This document shows, piece by piece, positions 14,140 to 60,587 of a stretch of 64,000 bases of DNA (positions within the stretch are counted from its first letter, which is position 1; each line of letters starts with the position of its first letter). The notes beneath the pieces are model-generated. The model saw only the letters and a program-made list of their open reading frames with translations. It was not told the DNA's origin and searched no databases. Source of the stretch: Acidobacteriota bacterium (GTDB lineage Bacteria > Acidobacteriota > Vicinamibacteria > Vicinamibacterales > CAVVIG01); assembly GCA_003222535.1 (NCBI GenBank), contig QHWJ01000345.1, positions 1,546 to 65,545 on the forward strand, read 5' to 3'. Position numbers and translations under genes: made by a program.

Positions 14140-15080
14140 TCGCCGCGACTCGCCTGACCCGCCGCTTCGGCTCACGCACCGTGGTCAACGACATCACGTT
14201 CGCGGTGTCTCGCTCTGAAATCGTCGCGCTGCTGGGCCCGAACGGGGCCGGCAAGACCACCACACTGAGAATGCTGGCGGGGCTGATCGCGCCGACCAGC
14301 GGCTCGGTGGCGATTGACGGCGTGCAGCTCACGAAGGCGGCGGGGACGTCGCTGCGCCGCCGCATCGGGTTTCTCACCGAGGCCCCCGGTCTCTGGGATC
14401 GGCTCACCGTTCGCGAGAACCTGCGCATCTACGCCGGCCTTTACGATCTTGCGCACGCCGAACAGACGATCGACCGCGCGCTCGAGATGTTCGAGCTGAC
14501 CGACTGCCGATCGGCGCGCGCCGCTGAACTGTCGAAAGGCATGCGGCAAAAGGTCGCGCTGGCCCGCGCCCTCCTGCACGATCCGGCGATCCTGCTGCTC
14601 GACGAGCCGTCGTCCGGGCTCGATCCCGAGGTGATGCGAATGGTCCGCCGGCTGCTCGAGGAGCGGCGGGCCGCCGGCTGCTCGATCCTCGTGTCGACGC
14701 ACAATCTCGACGAGGCCGAGCGTCTGGCGGATCGCGTCGCCGTGCTCCACGAGCGGCTGCTGGCGATCGATCGGCCGTCGGCGCTGCGGCAGCGGCTGAC
14801 GACCGGGCGCCTGATCGTCCGCGTATCCGGCGATCCGTCCTCCTACATCGAGACAGTGCGAGCGCTCGGACCCGGCTTCACGGACCCGGCGATCGAAGGG
14901 GCGGCGCTCATCCTTCGCGTCGCGGACCTCGACCGGCAGGCCCCCGCCCTGGTGGCGGCGCTGGTCGCCGGCGGCGCGCGGATCCTCGAGGTCCGCGCGG
15001 AGATCCCCGCGCTCGAGGACGTCTATCTTCATCTCGTGGGCGAGACGTCAGAAGTCAGAAGTCAGAAGTCTGAAGTCTGA
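14136..15080 (+). CDS. ABC transporter ATP-binding protein (ABC-2/DrrA-like)
   Basis: GPNGAGKTTT (Walker A), LSKGMRQKVALA (signature) and ILLLDEPSSGLD (Walker B) are present. The GTG at 14136 overlaps the upstream stop (GTGA). Confidence 0.9.
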   Translation: MIAATRLTRRFGSRTVVNDITFAVSRSEIVALLGPNGAGKTTTLRMLAGLIAPTSGSVAIDGVQLTKAAGTSLRRRIGFLTEAPGLWDRLTVRENLRIYAGLYDLAHAEQTIDRALEMFELTDCRSARAAELSKGMRQKVALARALLHDPAILLLDEPSSGLDPEVMRMVRRLLEERRAAGCSILVSTHNLDEAERLADRVAVLHERLLAIDRPSALRQRLTTGRLIVRVSGDPSSYIETVRALGPGFTDPAIEGAALILRVADLDRQAPALVAALVAGGARILEVRAEIPALEDVYLHLVGETSEVRSQKSEV

Positions 15081-23493: not shown

Positions 23494-23728
23494 AGGTCGG
23501 GTGGGTCGGGTAGGTCGGGTGGGTCGGGCTTGCCCGCCGTAGCTCGCATCGGCCAAGGCGCGTGAGCGAAGGCGGGTGGGTCAGGTAGGTCGAGTAGGTC
23601 GCGTGGGTCAGGGCGGTCGCGTGGGCCAGGTAGGTCGAGGGGTCAGGTACTTCGAGTAGGTCTGGTGGGTCGGGTAGGGGTAGGTGGGTCGAGTAGGTCA
23701 GGTGGGGCAGGGAGGTCGGGTGGGTCAA
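23494..23728 (+). repeat. degenerate hexamer/dodecamer array (GGTSGGGTRGGT-like), G-rich on the + strand
   Basis: There are two blocks (23494-23530 and 23571-23728). The core GGGTGGGTCGGGTAGGTCGGGTGGGTCGGG at 23499-23528 has six G3 tracts. The array ends one base before the ATG of the next gene. Confidence 0.85.
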
Positions 23729-24400
23729 ATGCTTCTGAAACGGAGGAAGGCGCGTTGGTTCGTCGGGCCCTCACTACATGGCCTGCCAGCGCTATCCGCC
23801 CTACCCGCCCTCGCGGCGGCCTGTCTCCTGGTCTCGTGCAGCCCAAGGCCGCCCGAGCCGAAAGACTATACGGCCAGGCTGGCGGCCGATCGTGCGGCGA
23901 AGGATGCGGCCTTCCAGAGCGGCTCGGATCCGGTTCCCGCCGCACGGCACGCCGAGTTGCTGCCGCTCGCGTACTTTCCGATCGATCCCGGATACGACGT
24001 GCCGGCGGTGCTCAAAACCACCGACGACCGCACGGTGTTCCAGATGCCGACATCGAGCGGCGCCCCGCGGGACATGCGGCGTGTCGGATCGCTCGAATTC
24101 ACGCTGAAGGGCCAGGCCTTGAAGCTGACGACCTTCGTGGAAGTGGCCACGCCCACTCACCTGTTCGTGGCGTTCAGCGATCTGACCAGCGGCAACGAAA
24201 CGTACCCGGCCGGCCGCTACGTCGATATCGATCGCAACAGCACCGGCATTTACGAGATTGACTTCAACCGCGCGTACAACCCGTACTGCTACTACAACCC
24301 CACGTACGAGTGTCCGTACCCACCCCCGGAAAACCGCCTGAAAATCCCGGTACGAGCGGGAGAACGAATGAAGAGGTCTGAAGTTGGAAGTCTGAAGTAA
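23729..24400 (+). CDS. DUF1684 family lipoprotein
   Basis: A lipobox-like AACLLVSC is followed by FPIDPGYDV...LTSGNETYPAGRYVD...FNRAYNPYCYYNPTYECPYPPPENRL, as in DUF1684. Confidence 0.85.
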   Translation: MLLKRRKARWFVGPSLHGLPALSALPALAAACLLVSCSPRPPEPKDYTARLAADRAAKDAAFQSGSDPVPAARHAELLPLAYFPIDPGYDVPAVLKTTDDRTVFQMPTSSGAPRDMRRVGSLEFTLKGQALKLTTFVEVATPTHLFVAFSDLTSGNETYPAGRYVDIDRNSTGIYEIDFNRAYNPYCYYNPTYECPYPPPENRLKIPVRAGERMKRSEVGSLK

Positions 24401-24463
24401 GAAGAGAAGTAAGAAGCAAAGCAGACTTCGTATTTCAGACTTCAGACTTCAGACTTCAGACTT
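24374..24463. repeat. heptamer-built hairpin (TCTGAAG)n ... (CAGACTT)n
   Basis: The left arm is gaggtctgaagttggaagtctgaagtaagaag. The right arm is cagacttcgtatttcagacttcagacttcagacttcagactt. The element spans the stop of the DUF1684 gene and ends 2 nt before the HAD ATG. Confidence 0.8.
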
Positions 24464-28261: not shown

Positions 28262-29170
28262 TTGATCAAAGAGCATCTCGTTCACGCGTTCGCACACGCC
28301 GCCCTCAGCCCCGATCCCGATCTCGCGGTGGCGGCGCTGATGATCGCGCGCGTCGAGTACCCCAGGCTCGACGCCGGACTCTATCTCGATCGGCTTGATG
28401 CCATCGGCCGCGAGGCCGGACGCCGGGTCGCCGCCGCGGGGGCCGCGACCCGCGATGCGCCCCCGGATGTGGATGCCGACCGTTACGCCCAGGTGATGGC
28501 ATTGAACGACTACCTGTTCGACGAGATGCGCTTCGTCGGCAACCAGGAGCAGTACGAAGATCCGCGCAACAGCTTCCTGAACGAGGTGCTCGATCGTCGC
28601 ACGGGGATTCCCATCACGCTCGCCCTGCTCTACATGGAAGTCGCCAGGCGGGCGGGCCTCCACGTCGAAGGCGTCAACTTCCCGGGGCACTTTCTGCTTC
28701 GGTGTCCGGCCAGACGAGGCCTGCGATACGCCGAGGATCTCATCATCGACGCGTTCCACGGCGGCGCGGTGCTCTCGCGGGAGCTGCTTCGGCACCAGGC
28801 CGGTGCGCGCGAAGACGAGGAAGATCCGGCGCGGTACGAGTCGCGCCTGCTGCCCCACGCGACCAAGCCGCAGATCCTGTCGCGGATGCTGATCAATCTC
28901 AAGCGGGCCTACGTGCGGATGCTGTCGTTCCCGCAGGCGCGCGACGTCACCGAGCTGCTCGTCGCCGTGGATCCGTCGGCGATCAACGAGCTGCGCGACC
29001 GCGGATTGCTGGCGTACCATCTGAAGGATTTTTCAGCCGCGCTCCGCGATCTCCAGGCGTTCCTCCAACTCACGTCGACCGTCAAGCTGGACTACGACGA
29101 GCGCAAGGATCGCGCGCAAATCTGGGAACATGTGAAGACGCTTCGCAAGAGGGTGGCTTCGCTCAACTGA
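28262..29170 (+). CDS. SirB1/YchA-like transglutaminase-like + TPR protein
   Basis: NSFLNEVLDRRTGIPITLALLYMEVARRAGL...GVNFPGHFLL is followed by a TPR-like tail. The TTG start at 28262 lies downstream of the terminator. The ORF-track start (27608) is an artefact. Confidence 0.7.
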   Translation: MIKEHLVHAFAHAALSPDPDLAVAALMIARVEYPRLDAGLYLDRLDAIGREAGRRVAAAGAATRDAPPDVDADRYAQVMALNDYLFDEMRFVGNQEQYEDPRNSFLNEVLDRRTGIPITLALLYMEVARRAGLHVEGVNFPGHFLLRCPARRGLRYAEDLIIDAFHGGAVLSRELLRHQAGAREDEEDPARYESRLLPHATKPQILSRMLINLKRAYVRMLSFPQARDVTELLVAVDPSAINELRDRGLLAYHLKDFSAALRDLQAFLQLTSTVKLDYDERKDRAQIWEHVKTLRKRVASLN

Positions 29171-29181
29171 GGCTCCGCCTC

Positions 29182-29277
29182 GTCATGGCTGATGCTTACA
29201 TCCGCTTGTCATGGCTGATGGCTAATGGTCCGGGCACTCCATAGACCATAGCCATTAGCCATCAGCGATCAGCCATG
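29182..29277. repeat. heptamer-built hairpin (TGGCTRA)n ... (GCCATYA)n
   Basis: gtcatggctgatggctaatggtc (29208-29230) pairs with gaccatagccattagccatcagcgatcagccatg (29245-29277). It lies between two convergent genes, and the stop of the minus-strand gene sits in the right arm. Confidence 0.8.
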
Positions 29278-29954
29278 GTGCGAACGCGTTTCCGGCCCTC
29301 CGGACACTCTTCCAGCAGAGGACACACCGAGCAGTGTGGGTCCCGCTCCGTGCAGGTCGCGGCACCGTGGTGCGAGAGGTAGCTGAACGCGCGGCGAAAT
29401 GCGTCGACCGATCGCGGCAGCTCGCAGGTGAGGGCCTCCTGAACCGATCGGGCCTGCTTCCGGAAATCATCGCTCGCGTCGCCGTAACCGAGCCGCCGGC
29501 CGACCCGGCTGACGCGCGCGTCGACCGGCAGAATGGGATGATCGGCGGCAAAGAGGAGCATCCGATGGGCACCACTCTCGCCAAGCTGGGGCAACGGCTT
29601 GAGCGCGCGGCGCGCGGCGGCGAGCGGGCCGCGGATGACGGCGGGCAGGCTCGGTGAGCGGCGGAACAGGTCGACGCCGGTTCGAAGGGCGCGCAGCCGG
29701 TTCTCGGCGTACGGTCCGGCCAGGGCGACGCTCTCCTCGAGTTTTTTCTGCGGCGCACGCCACATCGCGTCCGGAGTCAGCGCGCGAATCCGCTTGAGCG
29801 CGGTCAACGCCGCGTCCCGCTTGCGCGGCGTCGAGTGCACCGACAGCACTTCCCACACGAACAGTGTGAACGGATCCCTGGGCGGCGTCGGCAGCGGGCC
29901 GTAGAACTTCCGCAGCGCATCCAGCGTGTCCTCGAGCCTCGACACGGGGGACAC
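29262..29954 (-). CDS. HhH-GPD / endonuclease III-like protein with a 4Fe-4S loop
   Basis: LPQLGESGAHRMLLF (HhH) and a C-terminal CTERDPHCSVCPLLEEC cysteine cluster are present. Confidence 0.65.
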   Translation of the reverse strand: MSPVSRLEDTLDALRKFYGPLPTPPRDPFTLFVWEVLSVHSTPRKRDAALTALKRIRALTPDAMWRAPQKKLEESVALAGPYAENRLRALRTGVDLFRRSPSLPAVIRGPLAAARRALKPLPQLGESGAHRMLLFAADHPILPVDARVSRVGRRLGYGDASDDFRKQARSVQEALTCELPRSVDAFRRAFSYLSHHGAATCTERDPHCSVCPLLEECPEGRKRVRTMADR

Positions 29955-34410: not shown

Positions 34411-35193
34411 CTACTGTCTTCGAATCGCCTGCAGCGTGAAGTCCTCGTCCTTGAGCGGCAGGTTGTATTCCAGCTTCTCGAGCGTCATCCGCGTGCGAGT
34501 GCCGCGCTTGAGGTCCGACATCTCGAGCAGCCGGGCGGTCCATATGCCCTGCACGTTCTGAAAACCGGAGTAGTTCAGGCGGCGCACGACCAGGTCCTTC
34601 ACGTAGCTCTCGATCCGCGCGAACGCGTAGTTGTCTTTCCGGATCCACACGATCGATCGCGTGTACTGCGACGACCTGGATTCCCGCGGGGTCGACTGAA
34701 TCTTCCAGCAGGCGGCCCCGTCCACGGCTTCCTCGCCGCCGAGCGCGTACTCGTACTGGCTGACGTCCCGCTCCTCGAGGTCCTCGAAGCTGAAATCGGT
34801 GCCGAAGAATCTCGTCGAGCGGTCCTGCAGCGCGATCCGGCGGTCGCGCTCGATGGCCGGCGTCCACATCCACTGGTCCGACGCGCGGTCGGGATGGTTG
34901 ACCACGAGGAGCGCCACGCCCTTCACTTCCGCGGGCAGCGTGAAACGCAGCACGACCCTGCTCTGCCCGTGCGAGCCGAGCCGCTCGAGGGTCCACCGTT
35001 TGTCACTGATCCTGCCGTTGTGGTCGAACACCTGCAGCAGCCCTTCGTAGCGCTGCGACCTGGCGTCGGTGCGCTTTTGCGCTTCCTCGACGATCTGACG
35101 GGCGTTGTCGGCTGCGTTCATTGGATATCGCCAGGCTGCGAAGAGTGCCACGCAGACGAACAGCGTTTTTCCTGGCCGACCTGGCCGACCCAC
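34411..35193 (-). CDS. LolA-like outer-membrane lipoprotein-sorting protein family (PF17131-like)
   Basis: WMWTPAIERDRRI, FFGTDFSFEDLEERD and the body length are typical of LolA_like proteins. The start is uncertain: the GTG at 35193 gives the signal peptide MGRPGRPGKTLFVCVALFAAWRYPMNA. Confidence 0.7.
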   Translation of the reverse strand: MGRPGRPGKTLFVCVALFAAWRYPMNAADNARQIVEEAQKRTDARSQRYEGLLQVFDHNGRISDKRWTLERLGSHGQSRVVLRFTLPAEVKGVALLVVNHPDRASDQWMWTPAIERDRRIALQDRSTRFFGTDFSFEDLEERDVSQYEYALGGEEAVDGAACWKIQSTPRESRSSQYTRSIVWIRKDNYAFARIESYVKDLVVRRLNYSGFQNVQGIWTARLLEMSDLKRGTRTRMTLEKLEYNLPLKDEDFTLQAIRRQ

Positions 35194-35252
35194 CCGACCT
35201 ACCTGACCCACCCGACCTGCCTCGCCTACCTGACCCACCTGACCCACCTGCC
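35171..35252 (-). repeat. degenerate hexamer array, G-rich on the minus (sense) strand
   Basis: The plus strand reads cctggccgacctggccgacccacccgacctacctgacccacccgacctgcctcgcctacctgacccacctgacccacctgcc. It is the same family as 23494-23728. It begins 2 nt from the permease stop codon, and the chosen LolA-like start (35193) lies within it. Confidence 0.85.
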
Positions 35253-38890: not shown

Positions 38891-39000
38891 CGCTGAGGCG
38901 CGATGAACGTTTCTTACGGTAGACAGTCCCTTTCGTGCTTTTCGTGCTTTCGTGCATTTCGTGCTTTTCGCGGTGTGGTTTTAGGATACTCGCCTCAGCG
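38891..39000. repeat. (TTTCGTGC)n array flanked by a 10-bp inverted repeat
   Basis: tttcgtgcttttcgtgctttcgtgcatttcgtgcttttcg occupies 38931-38970. The flanks cgctgaggcg (38891-38900) and cgcctcagcg (38991-39000) are inverted. Confidence 0.75.
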
Positions 39001-40713: not shown

Positions 40714-40893
40714 TCCTCGGTTCTTGGTGCTTTGTGCTTCGTCCGTCCAAGGTCCTTAGTACTCCATTTCACAAGTACGGCGACGTATTTCGTGACGGCG
40801 ATCGGTGCCCTATTTCAGAAACGCTGTACTAAGGACCAAGGCCGGACCACGGACCAGGAACGGACCGGGCACCAAGAACAAAGGACCAAGGAC
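40714..40893. repeat. long hairpin built from GGTCCTT/AAGGACC-like heptamers
   Basis: The left arm ...ggttcttggtgctttgtgcttcgtccgtccaaggtccttagtac pairs with the right arm gtactaaggaccaaggccggaccacggaccaggaacggaccgggcaccaagaacaaaggaccaagg. It lies between convergent genes. Confidence 0.75.
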
Positions 40894-45308: not shown

Positions 45309-45364
45309 CGTAGGGCACCGCTGACGTAGGGCACCGCTGACGTAGGGCACCGCTTTAGCGGTGC
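45309..45364. repeat. 16-mer tandem repeat x3 ending in a hairpin
   Basis: cgtagggcaccgctga occurs three times (the last copy is diverged). The hairpin is ggcaccgc-ttta-gcggtgcc at 45345-45364. Confidence 0.8.
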
Positions 45365-45411
45365 CTCTCGAACGGCGGGTCTTTCGGGTCCACCCTCTTC
45401 TATTTGTCTTT

Positions 45412-46314
45412 CTATCTATCGAGAACCGCGCCGACCAGATCGCCGAGTTGCCGCGGCGTGAAGTCCTTGCCTTCGACCGTCGCCGCAAGCCGGCCTTCGC
45501 GATCGATGACGGCGGTCTGCAGCGAGTGCGTGATCAGCCCTTCCTCCGCCCAGTACTGAATCCCGAACGCGTTGCAGACGCGCTCGATCTTCGCGGCGTC
45601 GCCGGTCAGGAAGTGCCAACCCGGCCCGCCGGCGCGCTGCGATGCCGCGTAGCGCGTCAGGACCTGCGGCGTGTCGTACTTCGGATCGAAGCTGATGGTC
45701 AGCAGCACGAGATCCCGACCCATCCGCGCGGAGAACCGTTCGCGAACGGCTCGGAAATTCTCGATCATCCTCGGGCAGTAGTCGGGCAACGGACAGCGCG
45801 AGTAAATGAAGGTGACCGCGACGACCTTGCCCTTCAGCGACGAGAGCGCCATCAAAGCGTTGGACTGATCAGTCAGCTCGAAGTCCGGCACCGGCGACCC
45901 GACGGGCACCAGGACCGGCGTGGCCGGCGTCTGCTGCAGGCCCGCATCGACCGCGGCGGCCGACGTCACCTCGACGCGATCGACCCAGGAGCGACCGCCC
46001 GCGCCACGCTTCACGGCCAGCCGGAATCGCACCCGATCGCCGGGCTTCAGCGCCACCTCGCGCGCGGCGCCCTTCAAGTCGAACGGCATCGTCATCGCGT
46101 CCATGAACCCGGGAAACGCGTCGTGCGAGATCGTGACGATGGACCCGGGCTGATCGACGCGGAGGATGAGGCCCGTGGAGGAGTAGTGCTGCGCGCACGC
46201 GGCCGCGCCAACACCAAATGCAACCACGAAGACACGAAACAACGCCGAAACACACGAAGAAAACCATTTAACTCTTTTTCGTGTCTTCGTGCTTTCGTGG
46301 TCCCGGTAGCTCAC
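45412..46314 (-). CDS. SCO1/SenC family copper chaperone with an N-terminal CusF-like domain
   Basis: FIYSRCPLPDYCP (CxxxC) sits in a thioredoxin-fold body. MDAMTMPF lies in the N-terminal domain. The start is ambiguous: 46314 (ATG), or 46242 (TTG, giving MFRVFVVAFGVGAAAC). Confidence 0.8.
   Translation of the reverse strand: MSYRDHESTKTRKRVKWFSSCVSALFRVFVVAFGVGAAACAQHYSSTGLILRVDQPGSIVTISHDAFPGFMDAMTMPFDLKGAAREVALKPGDRVRFRLAVKRGAGGRSWVDRVEVTSAAAVDAGLQQTPATPVLVPVGSPVPDFELTDQSNALMALSSLKGKVVAVTFIYSRCPLPDYCPRMIENFRAVRERFSARMGRDLVLLTISFDPKYDTPQVLTRYAASQRAGGPGWHFLTGDAAKIERVCNAFGIQYWAEEGLITHSLQTAVIDREGRLAATVEGKDFTPRQLGDLVGAVLDR
46216..46301. repeat. heptamer-built hairpin (CACGAAR)n ... (YTTCGTG)n
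   Basis: aaatgcaaccacgaagacacgaaacaacgccgaaacacacgaagaaaa pairs with tttttcgtgtcttcgtgctttcgtggt. It shares the lead-in aaatgcaaccacgaa with 54598. Confidence 0.8.
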
Positions 46315-49038: not shown

Positions 49039-49040
49039 GA

Positions 49041-49196
49041 ATCTGGTAATTGGGTAATTGGGTAATCTGGTAATCTGGTAATTGGATTGGGTAATTGGGG
49101 TCATTGATTGGGTAATTGATTGGTTGATTGATTGGTTGATTGAGCCGTCAATCGTCAAATTCAATCACCCGATTACCAGATTACCCGATTACCAGA
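49041..49196. repeat. composite array: (GGTAATY)n, (TTGATTGG)n, then inverted (GATTACC)n
   Basis: ctggtaattgggtaattgggtaatctggtaatctggtaattgg is followed by gattgggtaattgattggttgattgattggttgattg. Then comes cccgattaccagattacccgattaccag. The array fills the hpnE-thiI gap and includes the hpnE stop. Confidence 0.85.
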
Positions 49197-50559
49197 TGCA
49201 AAGCTCCGCCGCGCGGTGTCCCGATCTGACCGCGCTCTCGATGGTCGCCGGCAGACCCGTATCGATCCAGTCGCCGGCAAGGAAGAACCCTTTCACGCCC
49301 GTTTCGGTCGACGGCCGCGCGGGCGCTCCGGGCGCGAGCGAGAACGTCGCGCGAGGCTCGCGCACGACGCTCGCCCGCAGCAGACGCGCGCTGCGCACCT
49401 CGGGCAGCGCCTCCAGCAGCTCGTCGTGCGCGACTTGAATCAGCTCGTCGTTGGATCGCGCCAGGATCGACGCCGCACCGCTCGACACCAGCGACAGATG
49501 CGACGCCTCGTCTCCAAACACGAGGCGCTTGTCGAAGACCCATTGCATCGCGCGGCCGGGGAGGCCGATGAACGGCTCGTCCAGCACGCGGCGATCGAAC
49601 CAGAGATTGACGGTCACGATGGGAGACGACGGCAAGCGTCTCGCGCGATCGAGGAGATCGCGAAGCGCAGGCGGCTCGCGTTCGAACAGCTCGGGAAACG
49701 CGAACCACGGGACCGACGAGATGACGCGGGTCGCGGTCCACCGCTCGTCGCCGGATTCGACGGCCGCCACCTCACCACCCCCGTCGCCGTCGTCGCTCAC
49801 GACAACCTTCGCGAGCGCACCAGTGCGGACCGTTCCTCCGTGGCGCTCGATGTACTCACGCGCGGGCTCCGCGTACATCAGGTGGAGCGGTTTGGTCGGA
49901 AGGGCGATGGCGGCGGCTTGGGCGTCGTCCCCGAGCATCTCCGCGAGCACCCGCGCGAAGGTGGGCGCCGCGGCCTGATCCGGCGGCTGATTGAGCGCCG
50001 CGAGCGCCAGCGGGGTCCACAGCATCTCACGAATGCGCGGCGTCTGGCCGTTTCGCACGAGCCAGCCCTCGACCGTCTCTCCCGGCGACGCCGCTTTCAT
50101 GGTCGACCCCGGCCGGAGCTCTCGGCGCGCGTGCTTCAATGGCGTCGCCATCCCCAGCGCGGACAGACGATCCCGCCACGAAAGCGCCTCCCACTCGAGC
50201 ACCCCGGCGACGAGATGGAACGGTGCCGGCAGCGCCGGACATGCGAGGCGCGTGCGCCGCAGGGCGCGATCGATCATCGTCACCGCGAGCTGCGGATCGA
50301 GGCGCACGTTGTCCAGCGCGCCGACGTCGCGCAGGAACGCGAAGGTCTCGGTATAGCACCCGAGCAGAACGTGCTGTCCGTTGTCCACGAGCTCGCCCGT
50401 CTCGCGGTCGGGAAACGCGGTCGCGCGTCCCCCGAGGCGTCCACGCGCTTCGAGCACGAGCACGCGCGCGCCGCCCCGGGTGAGGCGGGAGGCGGCGCTC
50501 AGGCCGGCAAAGCCGGCGCCGATGACGATGACGTCGAAGCGGGTCAGGTCCACAGCCAT
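49189..50559 (-). CDS. hpnE: hydroxysqualene dehydroxylase (FAD amine-oxidase/phytoene-desaturase fold)
   Basis: VIVIGAGFAGLSAA...LEARGRLGGR is present, and the gene lies directly downstream of two squalene/phytoene-synthase genes. Confidence 0.8.
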   Translation of the reverse strand: MAVDLTRFDVIVIGAGFAGLSAASRLTRGGARVLVLEARGRLGGRATAFPDRETGELVDNGQHVLLGCYTETFAFLRDVGALDNVRLDPQLAVTMIDRALRRTRLACPALPAPFHLVAGVLEWEALSWRDRLSALGMATPLKHARRELRPGSTMKAASPGETVEGWLVRNGQTPRIREMLWTPLALAALNQPPDQAAAPTFARVLAEMLGDDAQAAAIALPTKPLHLMYAEPAREYIERHGGTVRTGALAKVVVSDDGDGGGEVAAVESGDERWTATRVISSVPWFAFPELFEREPPALRDLLDRARRLPSSPIVTVNLWFDRRVLDEPFIGLPGRAMQWVFDKRLVFGDEASHLSLVSSGAASILARSNDELIQVAHDELLEALPEVRSARLLRASVVREPRATFSLAPGAPARPSTETGVKGFFLAGDWIDTGLPATIESAVRSGHRAAELCIW

Positions 50560-52354: not shown

Positions 52355-52852
52355 TTGCAGATGCGTGACGTTTTCGCCGCCGCGGCCGCTTTCATTCTGC
52401 TCCTCGTCGCGGCCAGCCTGGCGACGACGCTGCAGACGTATCGCCGGCGGCGGCTGCGCGCGCGCGACTCCGAGCGGGCCCTGGGGCGCACGATCATCGC
52501 CGAGATCCCGGCGGGCGACGGCCTGGTCCTGTTCAGCGAGGACGCGGTGCGGTTTTACCACGGCGAGCGCTCCATCGACAAAGATCTCGTCGTCGCGGCT
52601 CGAGTGCTGATCAACGGCTCGCCCATCGCGGCCTGCGTGTCGCGCCGGCATCCCGGCGAGGCGCTGAGGCAGGCCACGAGCTTCGAGGATCGGCCGGACG
52701 GCATTGAGCGCGACCGGTGGGACGTCGCCATCGAGACGGCGACAGGAACGGTGCTCGTCGAGTGCGGCGCAATTCGCGAGCGCGTATCCCAGGAGCTTGC
52801 GCGGTCGGTGTTCGACGCGGTGAAACGCGATCTGGAGCGGAGAGATCGCTGA
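52355..52852 (+). CDS. hypothetical single-pass membrane protein
   Basis: It has one N-terminal TM helix (FAAAAAFILLLVAASLATTL) and then a ~130-aa soluble domain. I recognise no family. Confidence 0.5.
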   Translation: MQMRDVFAAAAAFILLLVAASLATTLQTYRRRRLRARDSERALGRTIIAEIPAGDGLVLFSEDAVRFYHGERSIDKDLVVAARVLINGSPIAACVSRRHPGEALRQATSFEDRPDGIERDRWDVAIETATGTVLVECGAIRERVSQELARSVFDAVKRDLERRDR

Positions 52853-52917
52853 ATTTGGAATTTGGAATTCAGAATTTGGAATTCGGTCACGCATTCCAAA
52901 TTCCAAATTCCAAATTC
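52851..52917. repeat. heptamer-built hairpin (GAATTTG)n ... (CAAATTC)n
   Basis: gaatttggaatttggaattcagaatttggaattcg pairs with attccaaattccaaattccaaattc. It lies between convergent genes and starts inside the stop codon of 52355-52852. Confidence 0.85.
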
Positions 52918-52930
52918 TTACTTCTTAATT

Positions 52931-53484: not shown

Positions 53485-54183
53485 ATGGCCGTCAGGAAGA
53501 AGGTCCGCCGCGCGCTGCCGCTCCCGGTGCCATCCGATCGCCGCCGGTTCCGCCGCCGCCTGCTGTCGTGGTACCGGCGTCACGGCCGCGATCTGCCCTG
53601 GCGGAAGACCGACGACCCGTACCATATCCTGGTGTCCGAGATCATGCTGCAGCAGACGCAGGTCGACCGGGTGCTGCCGAAATACGCCGAGTGGCTGGAC
53701 AAGTACCCGTCGATGGCGGCGCTGGCGGCGGCGCCCGAGCGGGAGGTGACCGAGACGTGGTACCCGCTGGGCTACAACATCCGTCCACGCCGTCTCCAGT
53801 CAATCGCGCGCGAAGCCGTCGCGAGCTACGGCGGTCGGCTGCCGCCAGACGAAGCGACGCTGCTGTCGTTCAAGGGCATCGGGGCTTACACGGCAGGAGC
53901 CATTCGCAGCTTCGCGTTTCGCGAGCGCGCGGCGATTGTCGACACGAACGTCGCGCGGGTGCTCTTCCGCGTCTTCGTCGCCGAGGGCGATCCGAAGAGC
54001 CCCTGGATGAAGCGTCATCTCTGGACGCTGTCCGAAACACTCGTGCCGTCGCGTCACGTGTTCGATTTCAATCAGGCGTTGATGGATTTCGGTGCGATGG
54101 TCTGCGTCGCGCGGAATCCGAAGTGCCTCATCTGCCCGATGGCAAAGAGCTGCCGGGCCTATCCGTTCGCTCCGGGCACATGA
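53485..54183 (+). CDS. A/G-specific adenine glycosylase-like (MutY catalytic domain only)
   Basis: WYRRHGRDLPWR, YHILVSEIMLQQTQV, GIGAYTAGAI and the FeS loop CVARNPKCLICPMAKSC are present. It has no C-terminal NUDIX-like domain. Confidence 0.8.
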   Translation: MAVRKKVRRALPLPVPSDRRRFRRRLLSWYRRHGRDLPWRKTDDPYHILVSEIMLQQTQVDRVLPKYAEWLDKYPSMAALAAAPEREVTETWYPLGYNIRPRRLQSIAREAVASYGGRLPPDEATLLSFKGIGAYTAGAIRSFAFRERAAIVDTNVARVLFRVFVAEGDPKSPWMKRHLWTLSETLVPSRHVFDFNQALMDFGAMVCVARNPKCLICPMAKSCRAYPFAPGT

Positions 54184-54563
54184 CGACGATTGTCGTCGCC
54201 GCCGCGGTCGTCGAGCGGGACGGCCGGTTTCTGGTCACGAAACGGCCGAAGGGCGCCCACCTCGAGGGATGCTGGGAATTCCCCGGTGGCAAATGCGACG
54301 CCGGCGAGGCGCTCACTCTGTGTCTCGCGCGCGAGCTTCTCGAGGAGCTCGACGTCAACGCTCGAATCGGCGAGGAACTGCTTACGACGACTTACACGTA
54401 TCCGGAGCGCGCCGTCCAGCTGCATTTCTTCCGTTGCGAGCTGTTCGCGGAGCCGCGGCCTCAGCTCGATCAGGAGATGCGGTGGGTACCTCGCGAGGAG
54501 TTGGCGGCGCTCGAGTTTCCTCCGGCGGACGCCGAGTTGATTCGCAGGCTGATGCAGGTCTGA
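54180..54563 (+). CDS. MutT-type NUDIX hydrolase
   Basis: WEFPGGKCDAGEALTLCLARELLEEL is the Nudix box. ATGA overlap with the glycosylase gene. Confidence 0.85.
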   Translation: MTTIVVAAAVVERDGRFLVTKRPKGAHLEGCWEFPGGKCDAGEALTLCLARELLEELDVNARIGEELLTTTYTYPERAVQLHFFRCELFAEPRPQLDQEMRWVPREELAALEFPPADAELIRRLMQV

Positions 54564-54570
54564 GCCACTC

Positions 54571-54735
54571 GGACGGTCTGGAGACCGTCCCCTACCGTCT
54601 AAATGCAACCACGAAAACACGAAGATCCACGAAGAACGCGAAGAAGACTTTGTACAAAGAATTCTTCTTCGTGATCTTCGTTGGCTTTCGTGCCTTCGTG
54701 GTTGTATTTGGACTCTCCGGTAGGGGACGGTCTTC
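54571..54735. repeat. ~165-nt near-perfect hairpin with (CACGAAR)n / (YTTCGTG)n arms
   Basis: The outer arms are ggacggtctggagaccgtcccctaccg / cggtaggggacggtcttcc. The inner arms are aaatgcaaccacgaaaacacgaagatccacgaagaacgcgaagaag / cttcttcgtgatcttcgttggctttcgtgccttcgtggttgtattt. The loop is actttgtacaaagaatt. Confidence 0.85.
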
Positions 54736-54784
54736 CGCCTTCGCGTAAAGCTTCGGCGGACCGCCGTAGCCCTGGCGGAGGCGG
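54735..54784. repeat. dispersed 50-nt element, copy 2 (inverted relative to 19074-19123)
   Basis: ccgccttcgcgtaaagcttcggcggaccgccgtagccctggcggaggcgg abuts the ygfZ stop. Confidence 0.75.
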
Positions 54785-55795
54785 TCAGACCGTCCCGGCA
54801 GTGACGAACGGCAGCGTCGTGACTTCCGCGCTCGCGTCTGCGACTGTCAGCTTCGTTCCGGGCTCGACGAAATCGCGGTGCACGTACCCGAGCGCGATCG
54901 GCCGGTTCAGCGCCGGCGACCGCGTGCTGCTCGTCACCCGGCCGACCTCGCGATCGCCGCTGCGAATCACGGCACCGGGTGCCGGCACCTGCCGGCCGTC
55001 GATCAGCAGACCGACCAGCTTGCGCGCCACGCGGCCATGCCCGCGGTGCAGCACGCGGATCACGACCTCCTGCCCGACGTAGCAGCCTTTCGTGAAGCTG
55101 ATGGCGCGCGACTCGATGCCGGCCTCGAGCGGGATCGTGTCATCGCCCATGTCGCGGCGAAACAGCGGCACGCCCGACTCGATGCGGATGGCTTCGGCGG
55201 CCGGCTCGTCGGCCTCCACGACGTCAACGGCGCCGAGCGCCGTTTTGAGCGCGCCGGCCTGCTCGCGTTCCACGTACACGTCGTAGCCGGGTTCGCCGGT
55301 GTCGGTGACGCGCGCGACAATCGCGGTGCCGCCGCCCCAGGGCGCACGAAGATTGCCGTGCTCCGCGAGATCGCGCAGCCGCTCGGCGGAGAGACCCGTC
55401 ACGACGCCTGCAATCGCCTGCGCCGCCCGAGGGCCGACCACCGCGATCTGCGCAAACGTGTCCGTCGCGTCGCCGAGCTGCACGTCTTCCGTGAAGATGA
55501 ACTGATCGAGCTTCGCCAGCACGCCGTCCTTGACGTCGCCGGCCATCGTCAACAGCATGACGTCGCCGAGCTCGTAGACATGAAGATCCGCGATCATCCG
55601 GCCCTGCGCGGTGAGATACGCGGCGTAGCAGCCCTGCCCCGCCTTCAGCGCGACGACATCGTTGGTGAGGAGGCCCTGGAGATACGCCGCGCGGTCCGCG
55701 CCGGACACCACGATCCGTCCGCGACCGGACCGATCGATGAGCGCCGCGCGGTGACGGGCGGCGTCGTACGCGGCGGGGGAAACAGCTGGAATCAT
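54785..55795 (-). CDS. ygfZ: folate-binding YgfZ / GcvT-like protein
   Basis: AALIDRSGRGRIVVSGADRAAYLQGLLTND and the C-terminal KGCYVGQE motif are present. Confidence 0.85.
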   Translation of the reverse strand: MIPAVSPAAYDAARHRAALIDRSGRGRIVVSGADRAAYLQGLLTNDVVALKAGQGCYAAYLTAQGRMIADLHVYELGDVMLLTMAGDVKDGVLAKLDQFIFTEDVQLGDATDTFAQIAVVGPRAAQAIAGVVTGLSAERLRDLAEHGNLRAPWGGGTAIVARVTDTGEPGYDVYVEREQAGALKTALGAVDVVEADEPAAEAIRIESGVPLFRRDMGDDTIPLEAGIESRAISFTKGCYVGQEVVIRVLHRGHGRVARKLVGLLIDGRQVPAPGAVIRSGDREVGRVTSSTRSPALNRPIALGYVHRDFVEPGTKLTVADASAEVTTLPFVTAGTV

Positions 55796-58883: not shown

Positions 58884-59347
58884 AGAGCGAATCCCTGGAC
58901 GGCCCGCAGCGCGTCCTCGTACCGCAGAGCCTCGATCGGATCGAGCCGGGACGCTTTGAGGGCGGGCAGCAGGCCGCTGACGAGGCCGACGATCATCAGG
59001 ATCGCCGACGTGATCGCCACGAGTTGCACCGACAGCACGAGGTGGATATCGGTCACCCGGCTGGCGTCGTCCAGGAGCTCGGCGAGAAACGGCCGCGGGC
59101 TGAGCAGCCACACGAGCCCCCACGACACCGCGATGCCGACGCCGCCGCCGGCAAACGTCGTCGCCAGGCCCTCGAGCAGGAACTGAAGCAGAATCTCCCG
59201 GCGCTTCGCGCCAAGCGCCTTGCGCACGCCGATCTCACGCGTTCGCTCCTGGACGTTCACGAACATGATGTTCATGATCCCGACGCCGCCGATGGCGAGC
59301 GTGAGAACGCCGATTCGACAGCTGGACGAGGGCCGGACACCGGAAGT
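58874..59347 (-). pseudogene. 3' remnant of a MacB/FtsX-type ABC permease
   Basis: Only the last FtsX domain is present: [36 protein letters not shown]...[10 protein letters not shown]. An in-frame TGA lies at 59348-59350 and there is nothing permease-like upstream. Confidence 0.7.
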
Positions 59348-59579: not shown

Positions 59580-59864
59580 ATGTGGATCCTGCGGAGCGCC
59601 GAGACCGAGACGACGTTTCGCCTGCGATCCGGCGCCGTCAAGACCGTCGGCCGCGCGCCGCGCGCCGACTTCGTCGTCCATGCCGCCCTTGTCTCGCGCC
59701 TGCACTGCCGGCTGACCGCCACCGACGACAATCTCGAAGTGGTGGATCTGACGAGTACGAACGGCACGTTCGTCAACAACAGACGCGTCGAAAAGGCGCA
59801 TCTGTCGGCGGGCGATCGTCTTCGCGTGGGACGCGTGGAGTGGATCGTCATGGCTGAGGGCTGA
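59580..59864 (+). CDS. FHA domain protein (stand-alone, 94 aa)
   Basis: VGRAPRADFVV...VSRLHCRL...DLTSTNGTFVNNRRV is the FHA signature. Confidence 0.85.
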   Translation: MWILRSAETETTFRLRSGAVKTVGRAPRADFVVHAALVSRLHCRLTATDDNLEVVDLTSTNGTFVNNRRVEKAHLSAGDRLRVGRVEWIVMAEG

Positions 59865-59954
59865 GGGCTGAGGCAGCTCGTCATGGCCGAGGGCTAATGG
59901 CTTATGGCAATGGTGGATGGTTCCGTCTTTCGGCCATCAGCCATCAGCCATGAC
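59847..59954. repeat. heptamer-built hairpin (GGCTGAG/GGCTAAT)n ... (GCCATCA)n
   Basis: gtcatggctgagggctgagggctgagg...gtcatggccgagggctaatggcttatggcaatgg pairs with ggccatcagccatcagccatgac. Both convergent genes stop inside it. Confidence 0.8.
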
Positions 59955-60587
59955 AAGAAACGGATTGGTGCGGCGCTCGTGGCCGATGGTGGTGTCGGGT
60001 CCGTGTCCCGGATGAACGATGGCATCGTCGCCGAACGGGAAGAGGACCGTGCGGATCGAGGAGATCAGCGTGTTGAAATCGCCTCCCGGCAGATCCGTGC
60101 GGCCGATCGCGCCGGCAAACAGCGTGTCGCCGACGAACAGCTCCTTCGCCGTTCGGCCTTTTTTGCCGACCTGGAGACAGACGCCGCCGGGGCAATGACC
60201 CGGCGTGTGGTGCGGCCGCACTTCGCAGGCGCCGAACACGATGACGTCGCCCGGCGTGTAGAACACGTCGATCGGCGGCTGGGGCTCGACCGTCAGGCCA
60301 AACATCGCCCCCGACTCGACGGCGCGCTCGTAGAGAAACAGATCGTCCCGATGCAGGTAGACGGGCGCGCCGAGGAGTCGCTTCGCGGCCGCCACGCCGG
60401 TGACGTGATCGACGTGGGCGTGGGTCAGCAGAATGTGCCGGATCGCCAGCGCGTTGCGCCCGGCGAACGCCAGCAGGCCTGCCACCTCGTCGCCGGGATC
60501 AACGAGCACGGCGTCCCTGGTCTCTTCACAGCCGACCACGAAGCCGTTCTTGAAGAATGGGCCGACGGCCTGACTCTCAATTATCAT
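59937..60587 (-). CDS. MBL-fold hydrolase (glyoxalase II-like)
   Basis: ILLTHAHVDHVTG, TPGHCPGG and GDTLFAGAIGRTD are present. Confidence 0.9.
   Translation of the reverse strand: MIIESQAVGPFFKNGFVVGCEETRDAVLVDPGDEVAGLLAFAGRNALAIRHILLTHAHVDHVTGVAAAKRLLGAPVYLHRDDLFLYERAVESGAMFGLTVEPQPPIDVFYTPGDVIVFGACEVRPHHTPGHCPGGVCLQVGKKGRTAKELFVGDTLFAGAIGRTDLPGGDFNTLISSIRTVLFPFGDDAIVHPGHGPDTTIGHERRTNPFLVMADG

What the first reader, a model, noticed from the sequence alone, without database searches (positions are those of the whole stretch)
54571..54735. 165-nt hairpin made of inverted (CACGAAR)n heptamer blocks; same family at 46216 and 38931
Directly behind the MutT stop lies a near-perfect palindrome. 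Its arms are not random sequence. They are tandem 7-mers (ccacgaa aacacgaag atccacgaag aacgcgaag) mirrored by cttcttcgtg atcttcg ttggctttcgtg ccttcgtgg. A second copy at 46216-46301 shares the lead-in aaatgcaaccacgaa. A one-armed array (TTTCGTGC)n at 38931-38970 sits between its own 10-bp inverted flanks.

These are not CRISPR arrays, because they have no spacers. They are not canonical intrinsic terminators either, because they lack a U-tract. They are far longer and more regular than ordinary REPs. A repeat whose two arms can each grow or shrink by slippage, yet stay complementary, needs an explanation. Candidates are concerted evolution, a dedicated nuclease or transposase, or selection for an RNA/DNA cruciform.
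Basis: seen in the sequence. Interest (0 to 1): 0.7.

Follow-up and report, generated by a model that had tools for sequence, protein, structure and literature searches.

The report
Repeat-built palindrome family in soil Acidobacteria
The hairpin is real and is one copy of a high-copy repeated palindrome scattered between the genes of soil Acidobacteria; I found no Rfam family or paper describing it, and each arm is three or four copies of a conserved CACGAA motif.

Summary
Window 54571-54735 folds into a very stable imperfect hairpin (-108.5 kcal/mol, z = -11.8) between the convergent NUDIX and GCV_T genes, and five independent assemblies carry the identical sequence.

It is not a free microsatellite. 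It is one copy of a dispersed extragenic palindrome family: AAATGCAAC-(CACGAAR+N)x3-4-loop-(N+YTTCGTG)x3-4-GTTGCATTT. More than 100 copies at unrelated loci turned up in soil metagenomes and in Acidobacteria subdivision 6 (Vicinamibacteria) MAGs.

- A model built from those copies recovers 54601-54708 and, independently, 46216-46307.
- 38931-38972 is a one-armed relative.
- Copies face gene 3' ends about 2:1, with a median of about 35 nt after a stop codon, and also sit inside a nuo operon.
- There is no target-site duplication, no U-tract, no Rfam family and no recurrent neighbouring transposase.
- The CACGAA cores are near-invariant, while the spacers vary freely and do not covary. Sequence is therefore constrained, not just pairing.

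Separately, the window holds about 10 hairpins or arrays built from other 7-9-nt units. These change by whole units, in one arm only, between strains about 99.8% identical.

Best reading: a REP-like element that makes 3'/intercistronic RNA stem-loops. The factor that recognises it and the way it spreads are unknown.

The parts
54601..54709 (.). Core family element, cap to cap. The palindrome reads the same way on both strands.
   Evidence: Covariance model R1, built from 21 copies, scores it 63.0 bits (E 3.6e-14) on the plus strand and 57.2 bits on the minus strand. Inverted repeat I1.
54601..54609 (+). Left cap AAATGCAAC.
   Evidence: Sequence. Invariant in the 21 aligned copies, although the search pattern required it. 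The boundary is sharp, with unrelated flanks beyond it.
54610..54642 (+). Left arm with four cores: CACGAA at 54610, 54618 and 54628, and CGCGAA at 54637. Periods are 8, 10 and 9.
54643..54667 (.). Purine-rich inner stem and central palindrome CTTTGT|ACAAAG (dyad between 54653 and 54654). This is the apical loop region.
   Evidence: Inverted repeat I3; fold.
54668..54700 (+). Right arm with four cores: TTCGTG at 54668, TTCGTT at 54677, and TTCGTG at 54687 and 54695.
54701..54709 (+). Right cap GTTGTATTT. The family consensus is GTTGCATTT.
54582..54597 (.). Left half of the perfect 16-bp GC-rich clamp AGACCGTCCCCTACCG. It contains CTACCG.
   Evidence: Inverted repeat I2; CGGTAG/CTACCG association.
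54718..54733 (.). Right half of the clamp, CGGTAGGGGACGGTCT.
   Evidence: Inverted repeat I2.
54571..54580 (.). Outer inverted repeat GGACGGTCTG. It pairs with 54786-54795 and also forms a mini-hairpin with 54582-54590.
   Evidence: Inverted repeats I5 and I7; fold of 54555-54800.
54786..54795 (.). Partner of the outer inverted repeat, CAGACCGTCC. It overlaps the last codons and stop codon of GCV_T.
   Evidence: Inverted repeat I5.
54735..54784 (.). Second, GC-rich hairpin (CCGCCTTCGC...GCGGAGGCGG) that fills the rest of the intergenic region.
   Evidence: Inverted repeat I11; fold.
54180..54563 (+). NUDIX (MutT-like) gene, 127 aa as called in public assemblies. Its stop lies 8 nt before the structure.
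54785..55795 (-). GCV_T-family (aminomethyltransferase / YgfZ-like) gene, convergent with the NUDIX gene.
46216..46309 (.). Second family copy. It has the left cap, three good cores plus one degenerate core, three right cores, and the variant right end GGTCCCGGTAG. It overlaps the 5' end of the SCO1/CusF ORF.
   Evidence: 59.8 bits (E 2.6e-13) with model R1, and this copy was not in the training set.. The same GTCCCGG right end appears in 6 metagenome copies.
38917..38972 (+). One-armed relative: CGGTAG, then AGACAGTCCC, then five TTCGTG/TTCGCG cores with periods 9, 8, 9 and 9, ending in GT.
   Evidence: Population alleles have 5 or 4 units.

Best explanation
The hairpin is one copy of a dispersed, high-copy extragenic palindromic element (REP/BIME-like) of Acidobacteria subdivision 6 (Vicinamibacteria).

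**Architecture.** The element is modular: a 9-nt cap AAATGCAAC, three or four copies of a CACGAA(R) core each followed by 1-3 free bases, a variable loop, and then the mirror image ending in GTTGCATTT. In this copy it sits inside a local GC-rich clamp.

**Shown here.**
- The family exists and has this architecture.
- It lies between genes, with a bias towards gene 3' ends.
- There is no target-site duplication.
- The cores are constrained in sequence.
- The copy number per arm is constrained.

**Inferred.**
- When transcribed from either flanking gene, the element folds into a long, imperfect RNA duplex. That duplex would act like REP stem-loops do, as a barrier to 3'-5' exonucleases or a substrate for RNase III-type processing. 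At convergent junctions such as this one it would act as a bidirectional transcript-end structure, rather than as a canonical U-tract terminator.
- The repeated core is the recognition site of a sequence-specific protein that binds or mobilises the element. This would be analogous to RAYT (REP-associated tyrosine transposase) with REPs, but it has not been identified.

**Separate class.** The neighbouring hairpins built of other 7-9-nt units are ordinary fast-slipping microsatellites that happen to be arranged as inverted pairs.
For: **Family and architecture.**
- The genome hits are overwhelmingly gp6/Vicinamibacterales MAGs, with many copies per genome.
- Census of 109 copies: modal 3 units per arm, period 8 (181 of 238), median distance between the arms 23.5 nt, median span about 87 nt, 74 two-armed and 35 one-armed.
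- Model R1 recovers both two-armed window copies and nothing else above E = 0.05.

**Sequence constraint.**
- In 21 copies, the cores that the search pattern did not require are 95-100% conserved. The 7th base and the spacer are free and do not covary, and there are 0 compensatory pairs.
- Across phyla, the two arms share identical spacers in only 9 of 20 and 7 of 20 cases.

**Not a free microsatellite.** Run lengths are 3 units: 141 against 4 units: 13. The AGACTTC control from this window has a smooth distribution instead.

**Location.**
- Element sides face gene 3' ends 117:63 and 138:69.
- Convergent versus divergent contexts are 56:12.
- The median distance from stop codon to element is 34-36 nt.
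- The target fills a convergent junction.
- Three copies lie between nuoE/F, nuoF/H and after nuoK.

**Structure.**

**Insertion-like history.**
- The orthologous site in a relative with 69% protein identity has only a 9-bp hairpin.
- At 46216, two strains with about 99.8% identical flanks carry a different sequence instead.

**Functional precedent for long heptamer-armed RNA hairpins.** The hmw1A 5'-UTR of H. influenzae, which RNase III cleaves (PMC12721329).
Against: - No transcript data exist, so the RNA-level function is pure inference.
- No binding or mobilising protein was found. The top recurrent neighbours among 2016 flanking ORFs are ordinary paralog families, and no transposase domain appears among the genes called across about 14.5-64 kb of the window (the first ~14 kb has no domain annotation).
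- The classical REP hallmarks are not family features: neither the 20-40 nt size nor the GTAG/CGTC head.
- The search patterns fixed the cap and two cores, so part of the apparent conservation is ascertainment bias.
- Gene contexts come from a crude GC3-based ORF caller. An earlier, cruder version gave a weaker 3' bias.
Confidence: 0.6

Rival explanations
1. Pure mutational by-product. Under this reading the arms are microsatellites that arose in place by replication slippage. The palindrome arose by intrastrand template switching or fold-back synthesis. No sequence-specific factor is involved and no copying between loci takes place.
For: - The window is full of 7-9-nt arrays and inverted array pairs with unrelated units.
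- These gain or lose whole units between strains about 99.8% identical.
- The one-armed CACGAA array at 38931 itself varies by one 9-nt unit.
- Exact (AGACTTC)x3 arrays occur in more than 111 loci across bacteria and archaea.
- Heptamer SSRs are reported as over-represented in many bacteria (PMC4692102).
Against: - More than 100 copies at unrelated loci share the same 9-nt caps, the same core and the same count of about 3 units.
- Spacers differ between units of one array, so slippage has not homogenised them.
- The run-length distribution is pinned at 3, unlike the AGACTTC control.
- The target copy is invariant in five assemblies.
Confidence: 0.12
2. [quoted passage not shown] Under this reading the caps plus the core arrays are terminal inverted repeats carrying multiple transposase-binding sites, and a DDE (classical cut-and-paste type) transposase encoded elsewhere mobilises the element.
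For: - The ends are sharp and conserved, and the flanks are unrelated.
- The distance between the arms is variable, from 2 to 107 nt and up to about 250 nt in other phyla.
- There is a presence/replacement polymorphism at 46216.
- Sub-terminal repeated binding sites are typical of several transposon families (my own knowledge).
Against: - There is no target-site duplication: at most 4 of 14 matches for 2-mers across 25 offset combinations.
- Copies are heterogeneous in spacers and loops rather than near-identical.
- No transposase recurs in 1.3 Mb of flanks.
- No pair of arrays bracketing a transposase-sized ORF was seen.
- The 46216 polymorphism is a replacement, not a clean insertion.
Confidence: 0.1
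3. Dedicated transcription terminator. Under this reading the hairpin is a U-tract-less, bidirectional intrinsic terminator for the convergent NUDIX and GCV_T genes, and the family is the lineage's standard terminator.
For: - All six non-overlapping convergent junctions in the window carry a repeat-built hairpin: 29210, 40727, 45309, 52851, 54571 and 59847.
- The family has a 2:1 bias towards gene 3' ends and sits a median of about 35 nt after stop codons.
- In lower-GC phyla the CACGAAG modules are flanked by an A-rich tract outside the cap, which reads as a T-rich tract on the other strand.
Against: - There is no U-tract here. The consensus scan predicts nothing for the long hairpin, only one short internal stem at 54626-54642 on the minus strand.
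- Copies sit between cistrons of a nuo operon.
- Several window hairpins end 3 nt before a start codon: 24463 before 24466, and the ThiI start.
- Conservation of core sequence without covariation is not what a pure structure signal predicts.
Confidence: 0.25
4. DNA-level binding array. Under this reading the inverted triplets of CACGAA are operator, centromere-like or nucleoid-protein sites on double-stranded DNA, and the hairpin potential is incidental.
For: - The cores are conserved in sequence while the spacers are free, and the arms are not strictly complementary.
- The modules occur singly, head-to-head and tail-to-tail.
- Heptad arrays in direct and inverted orientation are the binding sites of the omega repressor of plasmid pSM19035 (my own knowledge).
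Against: - Periods of 8-10 bp vary within one element, which does not keep the sites on one face of the helix.
- Hundreds of copies next to unrelated housekeeping genes, with a bias towards 3' ends rather than promoters, do not look like a regulon.
- No candidate protein was found.
Confidence: 0.12

Closest known systems
REP / BIME / REPIN elements (repetitive extragenic palindromes of Enterobacteria and Pseudomonas, mobilised by RAYT Y1 transposases)
   Same: - High-copy imperfect palindromes with a consensus.
- Extragenic, concentrated just after stop codons and between cistrons of operons.
- No target-site duplication.
- Able to form RNA stem-loops.
- Different elements occupy the same intergenic site in different strains.
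   Different: - This family is about 87-110 nt long, not 20-40 nt.
- The arms are three or four iterations of a hexamer core with free spacers.
- The cap is AAATGCAAC, not a GTAG or CGTC head.
- No RAYT (REP-associated tyrosine transposase) was found or could be tested.
- The host is Acidobacteria subdivision 6.
H. influenzae hmw1A 5'-UTR heptamer SSR hairpin (ATCTTTC)n, processed by RNase III (PMC12721329)
   Same: - A long RNA hairpin whose arm is a short tandem repeat, immediately next to a gene.
- Repeat number is polymorphic. This holds for the window's other-unit hairpins and for the 38931 array.
- It offers an experimentally supported mechanism: a dsRNA substrate that tunes expression.
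   Different: - It is a single locus, with a perfect heptamer array on one arm and a G-rich partner on the other.
- It acts as a phase-variation device in a pathogen.
- The CACGAA family is dispersed, has both arms repeated, and holds its copy number near 3.
Intergenic heptamer repeat families (Xanthomonas GGGAATC, Nostoc/Calothrix STRR and GGGGAYT, Beggiatoaceae/Microcystis TAACTGA; PMC4692102, PMC4679880)
   Same: - Hundreds of intergenic arrays per genome.
- Conserved positions plus free positions within the unit.
- Occasional inverted pairs that could form stem-loops.
- Arrays abutting start codons.
- Length differs between close relatives.
   Different: - Those families are mainly one-stranded direct arrays with 2-26 units.
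- They are interpreted as G-quadruplexes or translational leaders.
- They have no conserved terminal caps and no fixed triplet architecture.
MITEs such as Correia/NEMIS or Nezha
   Same: - Small size.
- Terminal inverted repeats.
- Dispersed in intergenic regions.
- They can alter the ends of neighbouring genes.
   Different: - MITEs make target-site duplications, and their copies are near-identical with a conserved interior.
- Neither feature is seen here.
Inverted DNA-uptake-sequence pairs of Neisseria that double as terminators (my own knowledge)
   Same: A short motif that is selected for its sequence is placed as an inverted pair behind genes, where it also makes a hairpin.
   Different: - In Neisseria it is a single 10-12-mer per arm and is tied to natural competence.
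- No link to DNA uptake is known here.

Membership tests
REP/BIME-like extragenic palindrome | Located outside coding sequence, preferentially behind gene 3' ends or between cistrons. | tested here: met
   - The target lies between convergent stop codons.
- Family element sides face gene 3' ends 117:63 and 138:69, with a median of 34-36 nt after the stop codon.
- Copies lie within a nuo operon.
REP/BIME-like extragenic palindrome | Many dispersed copies sharing a consensus. | tested here: met
Flanks are unrelated, and individual MAGs carry many copies.
REP/BIME-like extragenic palindrome | Imperfect palindrome able to form a stem-loop. | tested here: met
   z = -11.8. The consensus structure has 24 pairs.
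REP/BIME-like extragenic palindrome | Unit size of 20-40 nt. | tested here: not met
   Median span is about 87 nt. This copy is 109 nt cap to cap, or about 165 nt with the clamp.
REP/BIME-like extragenic palindrome | Conserved GTAG or CGTC head tetranucleotide. | tested here: not met
   - The family cap is AAATGCAAC.
- CGGTAG abuts all three window copies (p < 5e-5).
- CGGTAG is absent near CACGAA arrays in other genomes.
REP/BIME-like extragenic palindrome | A cognate RAYT (REP-associated Y1 tyrosine transposase) gene in the genome. | not testable with these tools
   - Only 64 kb of the genome is available.
- None of the 10 largest clusters among 2016 flanking ORFs is a transposase family.
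MITE | Terminal inverted repeats. | tested here: met
   The caps AAATGCAAC / GTTGCATTT plus the mirrored core arrays.
MITE | Target-site duplication flanking each copy. | tested here: not met
   14 strictly capped copies were examined. No k = 3-5 duplication was found. For k = 2 the best result was 4 of 14, over 25 offset combinations.
MITE | Parent insertion sequence with the same ends. | tested here: inconclusive
   None was seen in 1.3 Mb of flanks or between widely spaced arrays. Whole genomes were not searchable.
Intrinsic (Rho-independent) terminator | GC-rich stem directly followed by a U-tract. | tested here: not met
   The right flank reads GTTGTATTTGGACTCTCC. The consensus scan places no terminator at the long hairpin, only a short internal stem at 54626-54642 on the minus strand.
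Intrinsic (Rho-independent) terminator | Produces transcript 3' ends. | not testable with these tools
   No RNA data were available.
Heptamer/short-period microsatellite (SSR) | Head-to-tail copies of one unit at a fixed period. | tested here: not met
   Periods are 8, 10 and 9, and the spacers differ. TRF reports only a 19-nt period at 1.9 copies here.
Heptamer/short-period microsatellite (SSR) | Unit-number polymorphism between close strains, with a smoothly decaying copy-number spectrum. | tested here: not met
   - The target is identical in 5 assemblies.
- The family is pinned at 3 units, unlike the AGACTTC control.
- Exception: the one-armed 38931 array has alleles of 5 and 4 units.
CRISPR array | Direct repeats separated by unique spacers of similar length. 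| tested here: not met
   The cores are 1-4 nt apart and the arms are inverted.
Any Rfam family | Scores above the gathering threshold. | tested here: not met
   There were 0 hits in the window and 0 hits in 18 loci carrying canonical hairpins. Below threshold only generic miRNA-type hairpin matches appeared.

The most novel reading that the evidence does not exclude
The CACGAA(G) triplet module is the cis-site of an unidentified sequence-specific nucleic-acid-binding or mobilising factor that is shared far beyond Acidobacteria.

Modules of exactly three cores, at an 8-9-nt period and with a conserved outer 'AC' cap, occur singly and as inverted pairs in many groups. These include Methylococcales, Verrucomicrobia, Planctomycetes, Desulfobacterota, Chloroflexi and Betaproteobacteria. 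Similar triplets with a weaker cap also occur in viral contigs, though many of those may be coding repeats.

If this reading is right, the element would define a new class of extragenic element. It would be specified by an array of a hexamer core rather than by a hairpin, and it would have its own machinery.
Probability: 0.2. Interest if true: 0.8.

Novelty: new variant of a known kind. Interest (0 to 1): 0.55.

Why it matters
Vicinamibacteria are among the most abundant soil bacteria and are barely tractable, and their non-coding DNA is essentially unannotated.

- **Annotation.** A defined, model-searchable family (caps plus a core triplet) explains a recurrent class of AT-rich islands in these GC-rich genomes. 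It marks gene ends. It also causes gene-caller errors, because ORFs are extended through the stop-free arrays, and it coincides with scaffold breaks.
- **An unknown factor.** The cores are conserved in sequence while the paired spacers are not. This points to an unknown protein partner that a pull-down experiment could identify.
- **Strain markers.** The accompanying hypervariable 7-9-nt hairpins provide natural strain-level markers. They also offer a system for studying hairpin-coupled slippage outside pathogens.
- **New protein ends.** One copy supplies the hydrophobic core of a lipoprotein signal peptide. This is a concrete case of a repeat element creating a new protein end.

Tried and rejected
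- **Rfam.** Gathering threshold on the window and on 18 loci, and E-value mode on the element, gave only spurious miRNA-like hits.
- **Literature.** Searches by topic and by literal sequence (TCACCACGAAG and similar) found only primers and general SSR/REP papers. The Mrazek 2007 PNAS paper is not held.
- **BLAST of a consensus hairpin against plasmids.** No match.
- **Hit counts as evidence that CACGAA is special.** Those hits are mostly 9-nt coding repeats. Only the cap, the inverted-partner rate (20/120 against 0-1/120) and the run-length spectrum discriminate.
- **Cross-phylum presence of a unit as evidence of a shared factor.** Weakened, because exact (AGACTTC)x3 is also found across the tree.
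- **parS-like reading of TTTCAC...GTGAAA caps.** Rejected, because the G at position -7 is not enriched.
- **CGGTAG as a family-wide GTAG tag.** Rejected outside this genome.
- **Target-site duplications.** None found.
- **Transposase next to or between arrays.** None found.
- **Orthologous-site comparison for arms changing in step.** Relatives lack the element altogether.
- **First gene-context tally.** It used a cruder neighbour rule and was replaced.
- **One look-up failed.** The 598-aa ACAD ORF is not on record.
Full report
**1. Observation**

The sequence at 54571-54735 is as described.
- The repeat finder gives 54-nt arms (54597-54650 / 54660-54713) that are 80% complementary. A perfect 16-bp GC-rich clamp (54582-54597 / 54718-54733) and an outer 10-bp inverted repeat (54571-54580 / 54786-54795) enclose them.
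- As RNA the plus strand folds at -108.5 kcal/mol, against -53.0 +/- 4.7 for shuffles (z = -11.8). The minus strand gives z = -11.6.
- The whole 221-nt gap is structured and also holds a second GC-rich hairpin at 54735-54784. The gap lies between the NUDIX stop (54563) and the convergent GCV_T stop (54785).
- Clusters of CACGAA occur 9 times in the window against 0.04 expected, and only at 38932-38963, 46225-46299 and 54610-54700.
- The units are not strict heptamers. They are a CACGAA(R) core plus 1-4 free bases, with periods of 8, 10 and 9.
- The same sequence is present in two NCBI MAG assemblies and two JGI metagenome contigs, so it is not an assembly artefact.

**2. Organism and surroundings**

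- The GCV_T protein's best relative among GTDB species representatives is 69% identical. That relative and the next-best ones are Acidobacteriota/Vicinamibacterales MAGs.
- Identical proteins occur in MAGs GCA_003222505.1 and GCA_003223755.1 and in soil metagenomes.
- Window GC is about 66%.
- A low-GC scan and TRF showed that the target is not alone. About ten further AT-rich hairpins or arrays are built from other 7-9-nt units:

| Window position | Unit |
|---|---|
| 15043 | AGAAGTC |
| 23495 and 35176 | GGTGGGTCR |
| 24371 | GTCTGAA |
| ~29210 | GGCTGAT |
| 40727 | AAGGACC |
| 45309 | 16-mer |
| 47786 | TAGGGCT |
| 49040 | GGTAATTG |
| 52851 | GAATTTG |
| 59847 | GGCTGAG |

- All six non-overlapping convergent gene junctions in the window carry one of these hairpins (gene calls).

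**3. Two different phenomena**

(a) *Other-unit arrays are classic slipping microsatellites.* Near-identical population contigs (about 99.8% identity) differ from the window almost only at these elements, and by whole units.
- One unit of 7 nt is missing from the right arm of the 52851 hairpin and from the 47786 array.
- There are 8- and 12-nt unit changes in the 49040 hairpin.
- The right arm of the 24371 hairpin gains 7 nt, and the 9-mer array has five length alleles.
- The left arm of the ~29210 hairpin has 2-3 to 7 units while its right arm is invariant.
- So the arms change independently, not in step.
- An exact (AGACTTC)x3 probe finds more than 111 loci across bacteria and archaea. Its copy-number spectrum decays smoothly (3:35, 4:31, 5:19 ... 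29) and it has no caps. This fits the reported over-representation of heptamer SSRs (PMC4692102).

(b) *The CACGAA elements behave differently.*
I estimate about 15 chance hits, assuming a collection of roughly 2 Tb.
- A census of 109 copies gives the architecture AAATGCAAC-(CACGAAR+N)x3-loop-(N+YTTCGTG)x3-GTTGCATTT:
  - units per arm: 3 units in 69 copies, 4 in 23, 2 in 14, 5 or more in 3;
  - period 8 in 181 of 238 intervals;
  - median distance between arms 23.5 nt, and median span about 87 nt;
  - 74 two-armed and 35 one-armed copies;
  - a minority right end GTCCCGG, as in the window's 46216 copy.
- The boundaries are sharp, the flanks are unrelated, and there is no target-site duplication.
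- A covariance model built from 21 copies scores 54601-54708 at 63 bits. It scores 46216-46307, which was not used for training, at 59.8 bits. Nothing else in the window scores better than E about 0.09.
- The three window copies additionally share an adjacent CGGTAG: 4 of the 12 occurrences in 64 kb abut them (p < 5e-5). This is a local feature that is not seen in other genomes.

**4. What is constrained**

- In the 21-copy alignment the predicted 24 base pairs show no compensatory change.
- The cores are 95-100% conserved, including cores that the search patterns did not fix.
- The 7th base and the spacers vary freely and do not covary: pair 17-100 reads GU10 / GC5 / AC4 / AU2.
- In other phyla the two arms share identical spacers in under half of cases.
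- Together with the pinned unit number, this indicates selection on the core sequence and on module size, not only on pairing.
- Caveat: the cap and two cores were required by the search, so those positions are ascertained.

**5. Where copies sit**

- With a GC3-based ORF caller, element sides face gene 3' ends 117:63 (metagenomes) and 138:69 (genomes).
- Convergent versus divergent contexts are 56:12.
- The median distance from stop codon to element is 34-36 nt.
- Copies also lie between nuoE/nuoF, between nuoF/nuoH and after nuoK in one contig, so they are not obligate terminators.
- There is no U-tract at the target.
- The orthologous site in the relative with 69% protein identity has only a 9-bp GC hairpin. 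More distant relatives have almost no spacer. The element was therefore gained in this lineage.

**6. Turnover at 46216**

- Eight of ten population contigs carry the window's CACGAA copy.
- Two contigs carry, between identical flanks, a different sequence: a GCAGAGT/GCTGATT heptamer array followed by an ordinary signal-peptide coding stretch.
- In the window allele, the minus-strand reading of the TTCGTG arm encodes SSCVSALFRVFVVAFGVGAAAC|AQ. This is a plausible lipoprotein signal peptide for the SCO1/CusF protein. The two alleles differ by 15 nt, so the reading frame is kept.
- This is a replacement, not a clean insertion, and it leaves no footprint.

**7. Wider distribution**

- A looser probe (three CACGAA at 7-9-nt spacing) finds modules in many phyla.
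- These modules have a non-ascertained outer 'AC' cap: base -1 is C in 120 of 151 runs, against 15% at internal positions.
- They contain almost exactly 3 units (141 runs against 13 with 4 units).
- An inverted partner lies nearby in 20 of 120 loci, against 0-1 of 120 for the scrambled controls.
- An A-rich tract lies outside the cap, equivalent to a T-rich tract on the other strand.

**8. Comparison with known systems**

- No Rfam family matches, and no paper describing the motif was found.
- In behaviour the family is closest to REP/BIME elements: extragenic, biased to 3' ends, present within operons, without target-site duplication, and palindromic. It fails the REP size and GTAG-head criteria, and a RAYT (REP-associated tyrosine transposase) could not be tested.
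- It fails the MITE test on target-site duplication and on copy homogeneity.
- The best experimental precedent for a repeat-armed long RNA hairpin next to a gene is the hmw1A 5'-UTR of H. influenzae, cut by RNase III.
- Inverted pairs of heptamer arrays have been noted in Xanthomonas.

**9. Verdict**

The 'arms slip yet stay complementary' puzzle dissolves.
- The element is best described as a new, architecturally unusual REP-like family of Vicinamibacteria.
- Its RNA-level role (a 3'/intercistronic stem-loop) and its recognition factor are inferred, not shown.
- Novelty: a new variant of a known kind. Interest is moderate, 0.55.

Noticed in passing
window 46216-46314 (minus strand); L205 19468-19560; L208, L210: The TTCGTG arm of the 46216 copy encodes the hydrophobic core and lipobox of the SCO1/CusF protein's signal peptide (…FRVFVVAFGVGAAAC|AQ). 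Two near-identical strains encode an ordinary signal peptide (VLIGCCSAVLALALSATAC|AQ) from unrelated sequence at the same place. A purine-rich arm followed by a pyrimidine-rich arm translates as a charged stretch followed by a hydrophobic stretch.
   Followed up: partly
window 29210-29275, 40727-40893, 45309-45375, 52851-52930, 54571-54796, 59847-59957: Every non-overlapping convergent gene junction in the window (6 of 6) is filled by a hairpin built from short tandem repeats. Each hairpin uses a different unit.
   Followed up: partly
window 23495-23727 (+) and 35176-35250 (complement): G-rich 9-mer arrays (GGTGGGTCR) read G-rich on the sense strand between co-directional genes. The first has five length alleles (296-386 nt between fixed anchors) among near-identical strains. 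They resemble the G-quadruplex-prone heptamer arrays of Xanthomonas and Nostoc.
   Followed up: partly
window 26757/8, 38748/9, 41896/7, 61073/4; also 58994-59081: Stretches of ordinary GC-rich, coding-like sequence differ in presence between the window and near-identical public contigs.
- At 26757/8, 38748/9 and 41896/7 the window lacks about 92, 60 and 96 nt that every aligned population contig covering the site carries (5 to 8 contigs per site).
- At 61073/4 it lacks 86 nt that L205, the only contig aligned across that point, carries.
- Conversely, L205 lacks 88 nt that the window has at 58994-59081.

These may be assembly deletions or real short deletions.
   Followed up: no
window 24371-24463 and 49040-49197: Two hairpins end 3 nt before a start codon: ATG at 24466, and the ThiI ATG (MKSIVVHYKEL, minus strand, about 49038). 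No Shine-Dalgarno sequence lies between. Gene callers extend ThiI by 22 codons into the array (425 aa against 403 aa).
   Followed up: partly
window 15043-15080 and 24373-24400: Heptamer arrays overlap the 3' ends of coding sequences. These are the ABC ATPase C-terminus (…SEVRSQKSEV*) and the DUF1684 C-terminus. The repeats therefore also write protein tails.
   Followed up: no
window 45309-45375: A 16-mer (CGTAGGGCACCGCTGA) is repeated 2.9 times. It is the tandemly triplicated left arm of a small hairpin, GGCACCGC-TTTA-GCGGTGCC. The adjacent AT-rich tract varies between strains.
   Followed up: no
L578 and L579 (metagenome scaffolds), at window ~29105-29359 and 40752-40836: Scaffold gaps (runs of N) fall exactly on the repeat hairpins, so short-read assemblers break there. 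L578 also appears to lack the aldolase-SCO1 segment altogether.
   Followed up: no
L649 1149-1227, 2577, 4546: Three CACGAA family copies sit between cistrons of a nuo (NADH dehydrogenase) operon: nuoE/F, nuoF/H and after nuoK.
   Followed up: yes
L234 (IMG/VR contig) 2024, 5113, 5676, 11083: A viral contig carries four co-oriented copies of a roughly 50-nt element. It reads AACCGATTT-NN-AACCACGAAA-NN-CACGAAAGACACGAAAA and is often followed by a small GC hairpin. This looks like a phage regulatory repeat that uses the same core triplet.
   Followed up: no
L174 1901-2072: A nested palindrome: a CACGGAA x3 hairpin lies inside a CACGAA x3 hairpin.
   Followed up: no
L612, L619, L648, L652, L654: Family variants. 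In some the cap plus one core is itself tandemly repeated (CACGAAGAAATGCAAC x3). One copy has about 10 CACGAAGAT units. So occasional runaway slippage does occur within the family.
   Followed up: no
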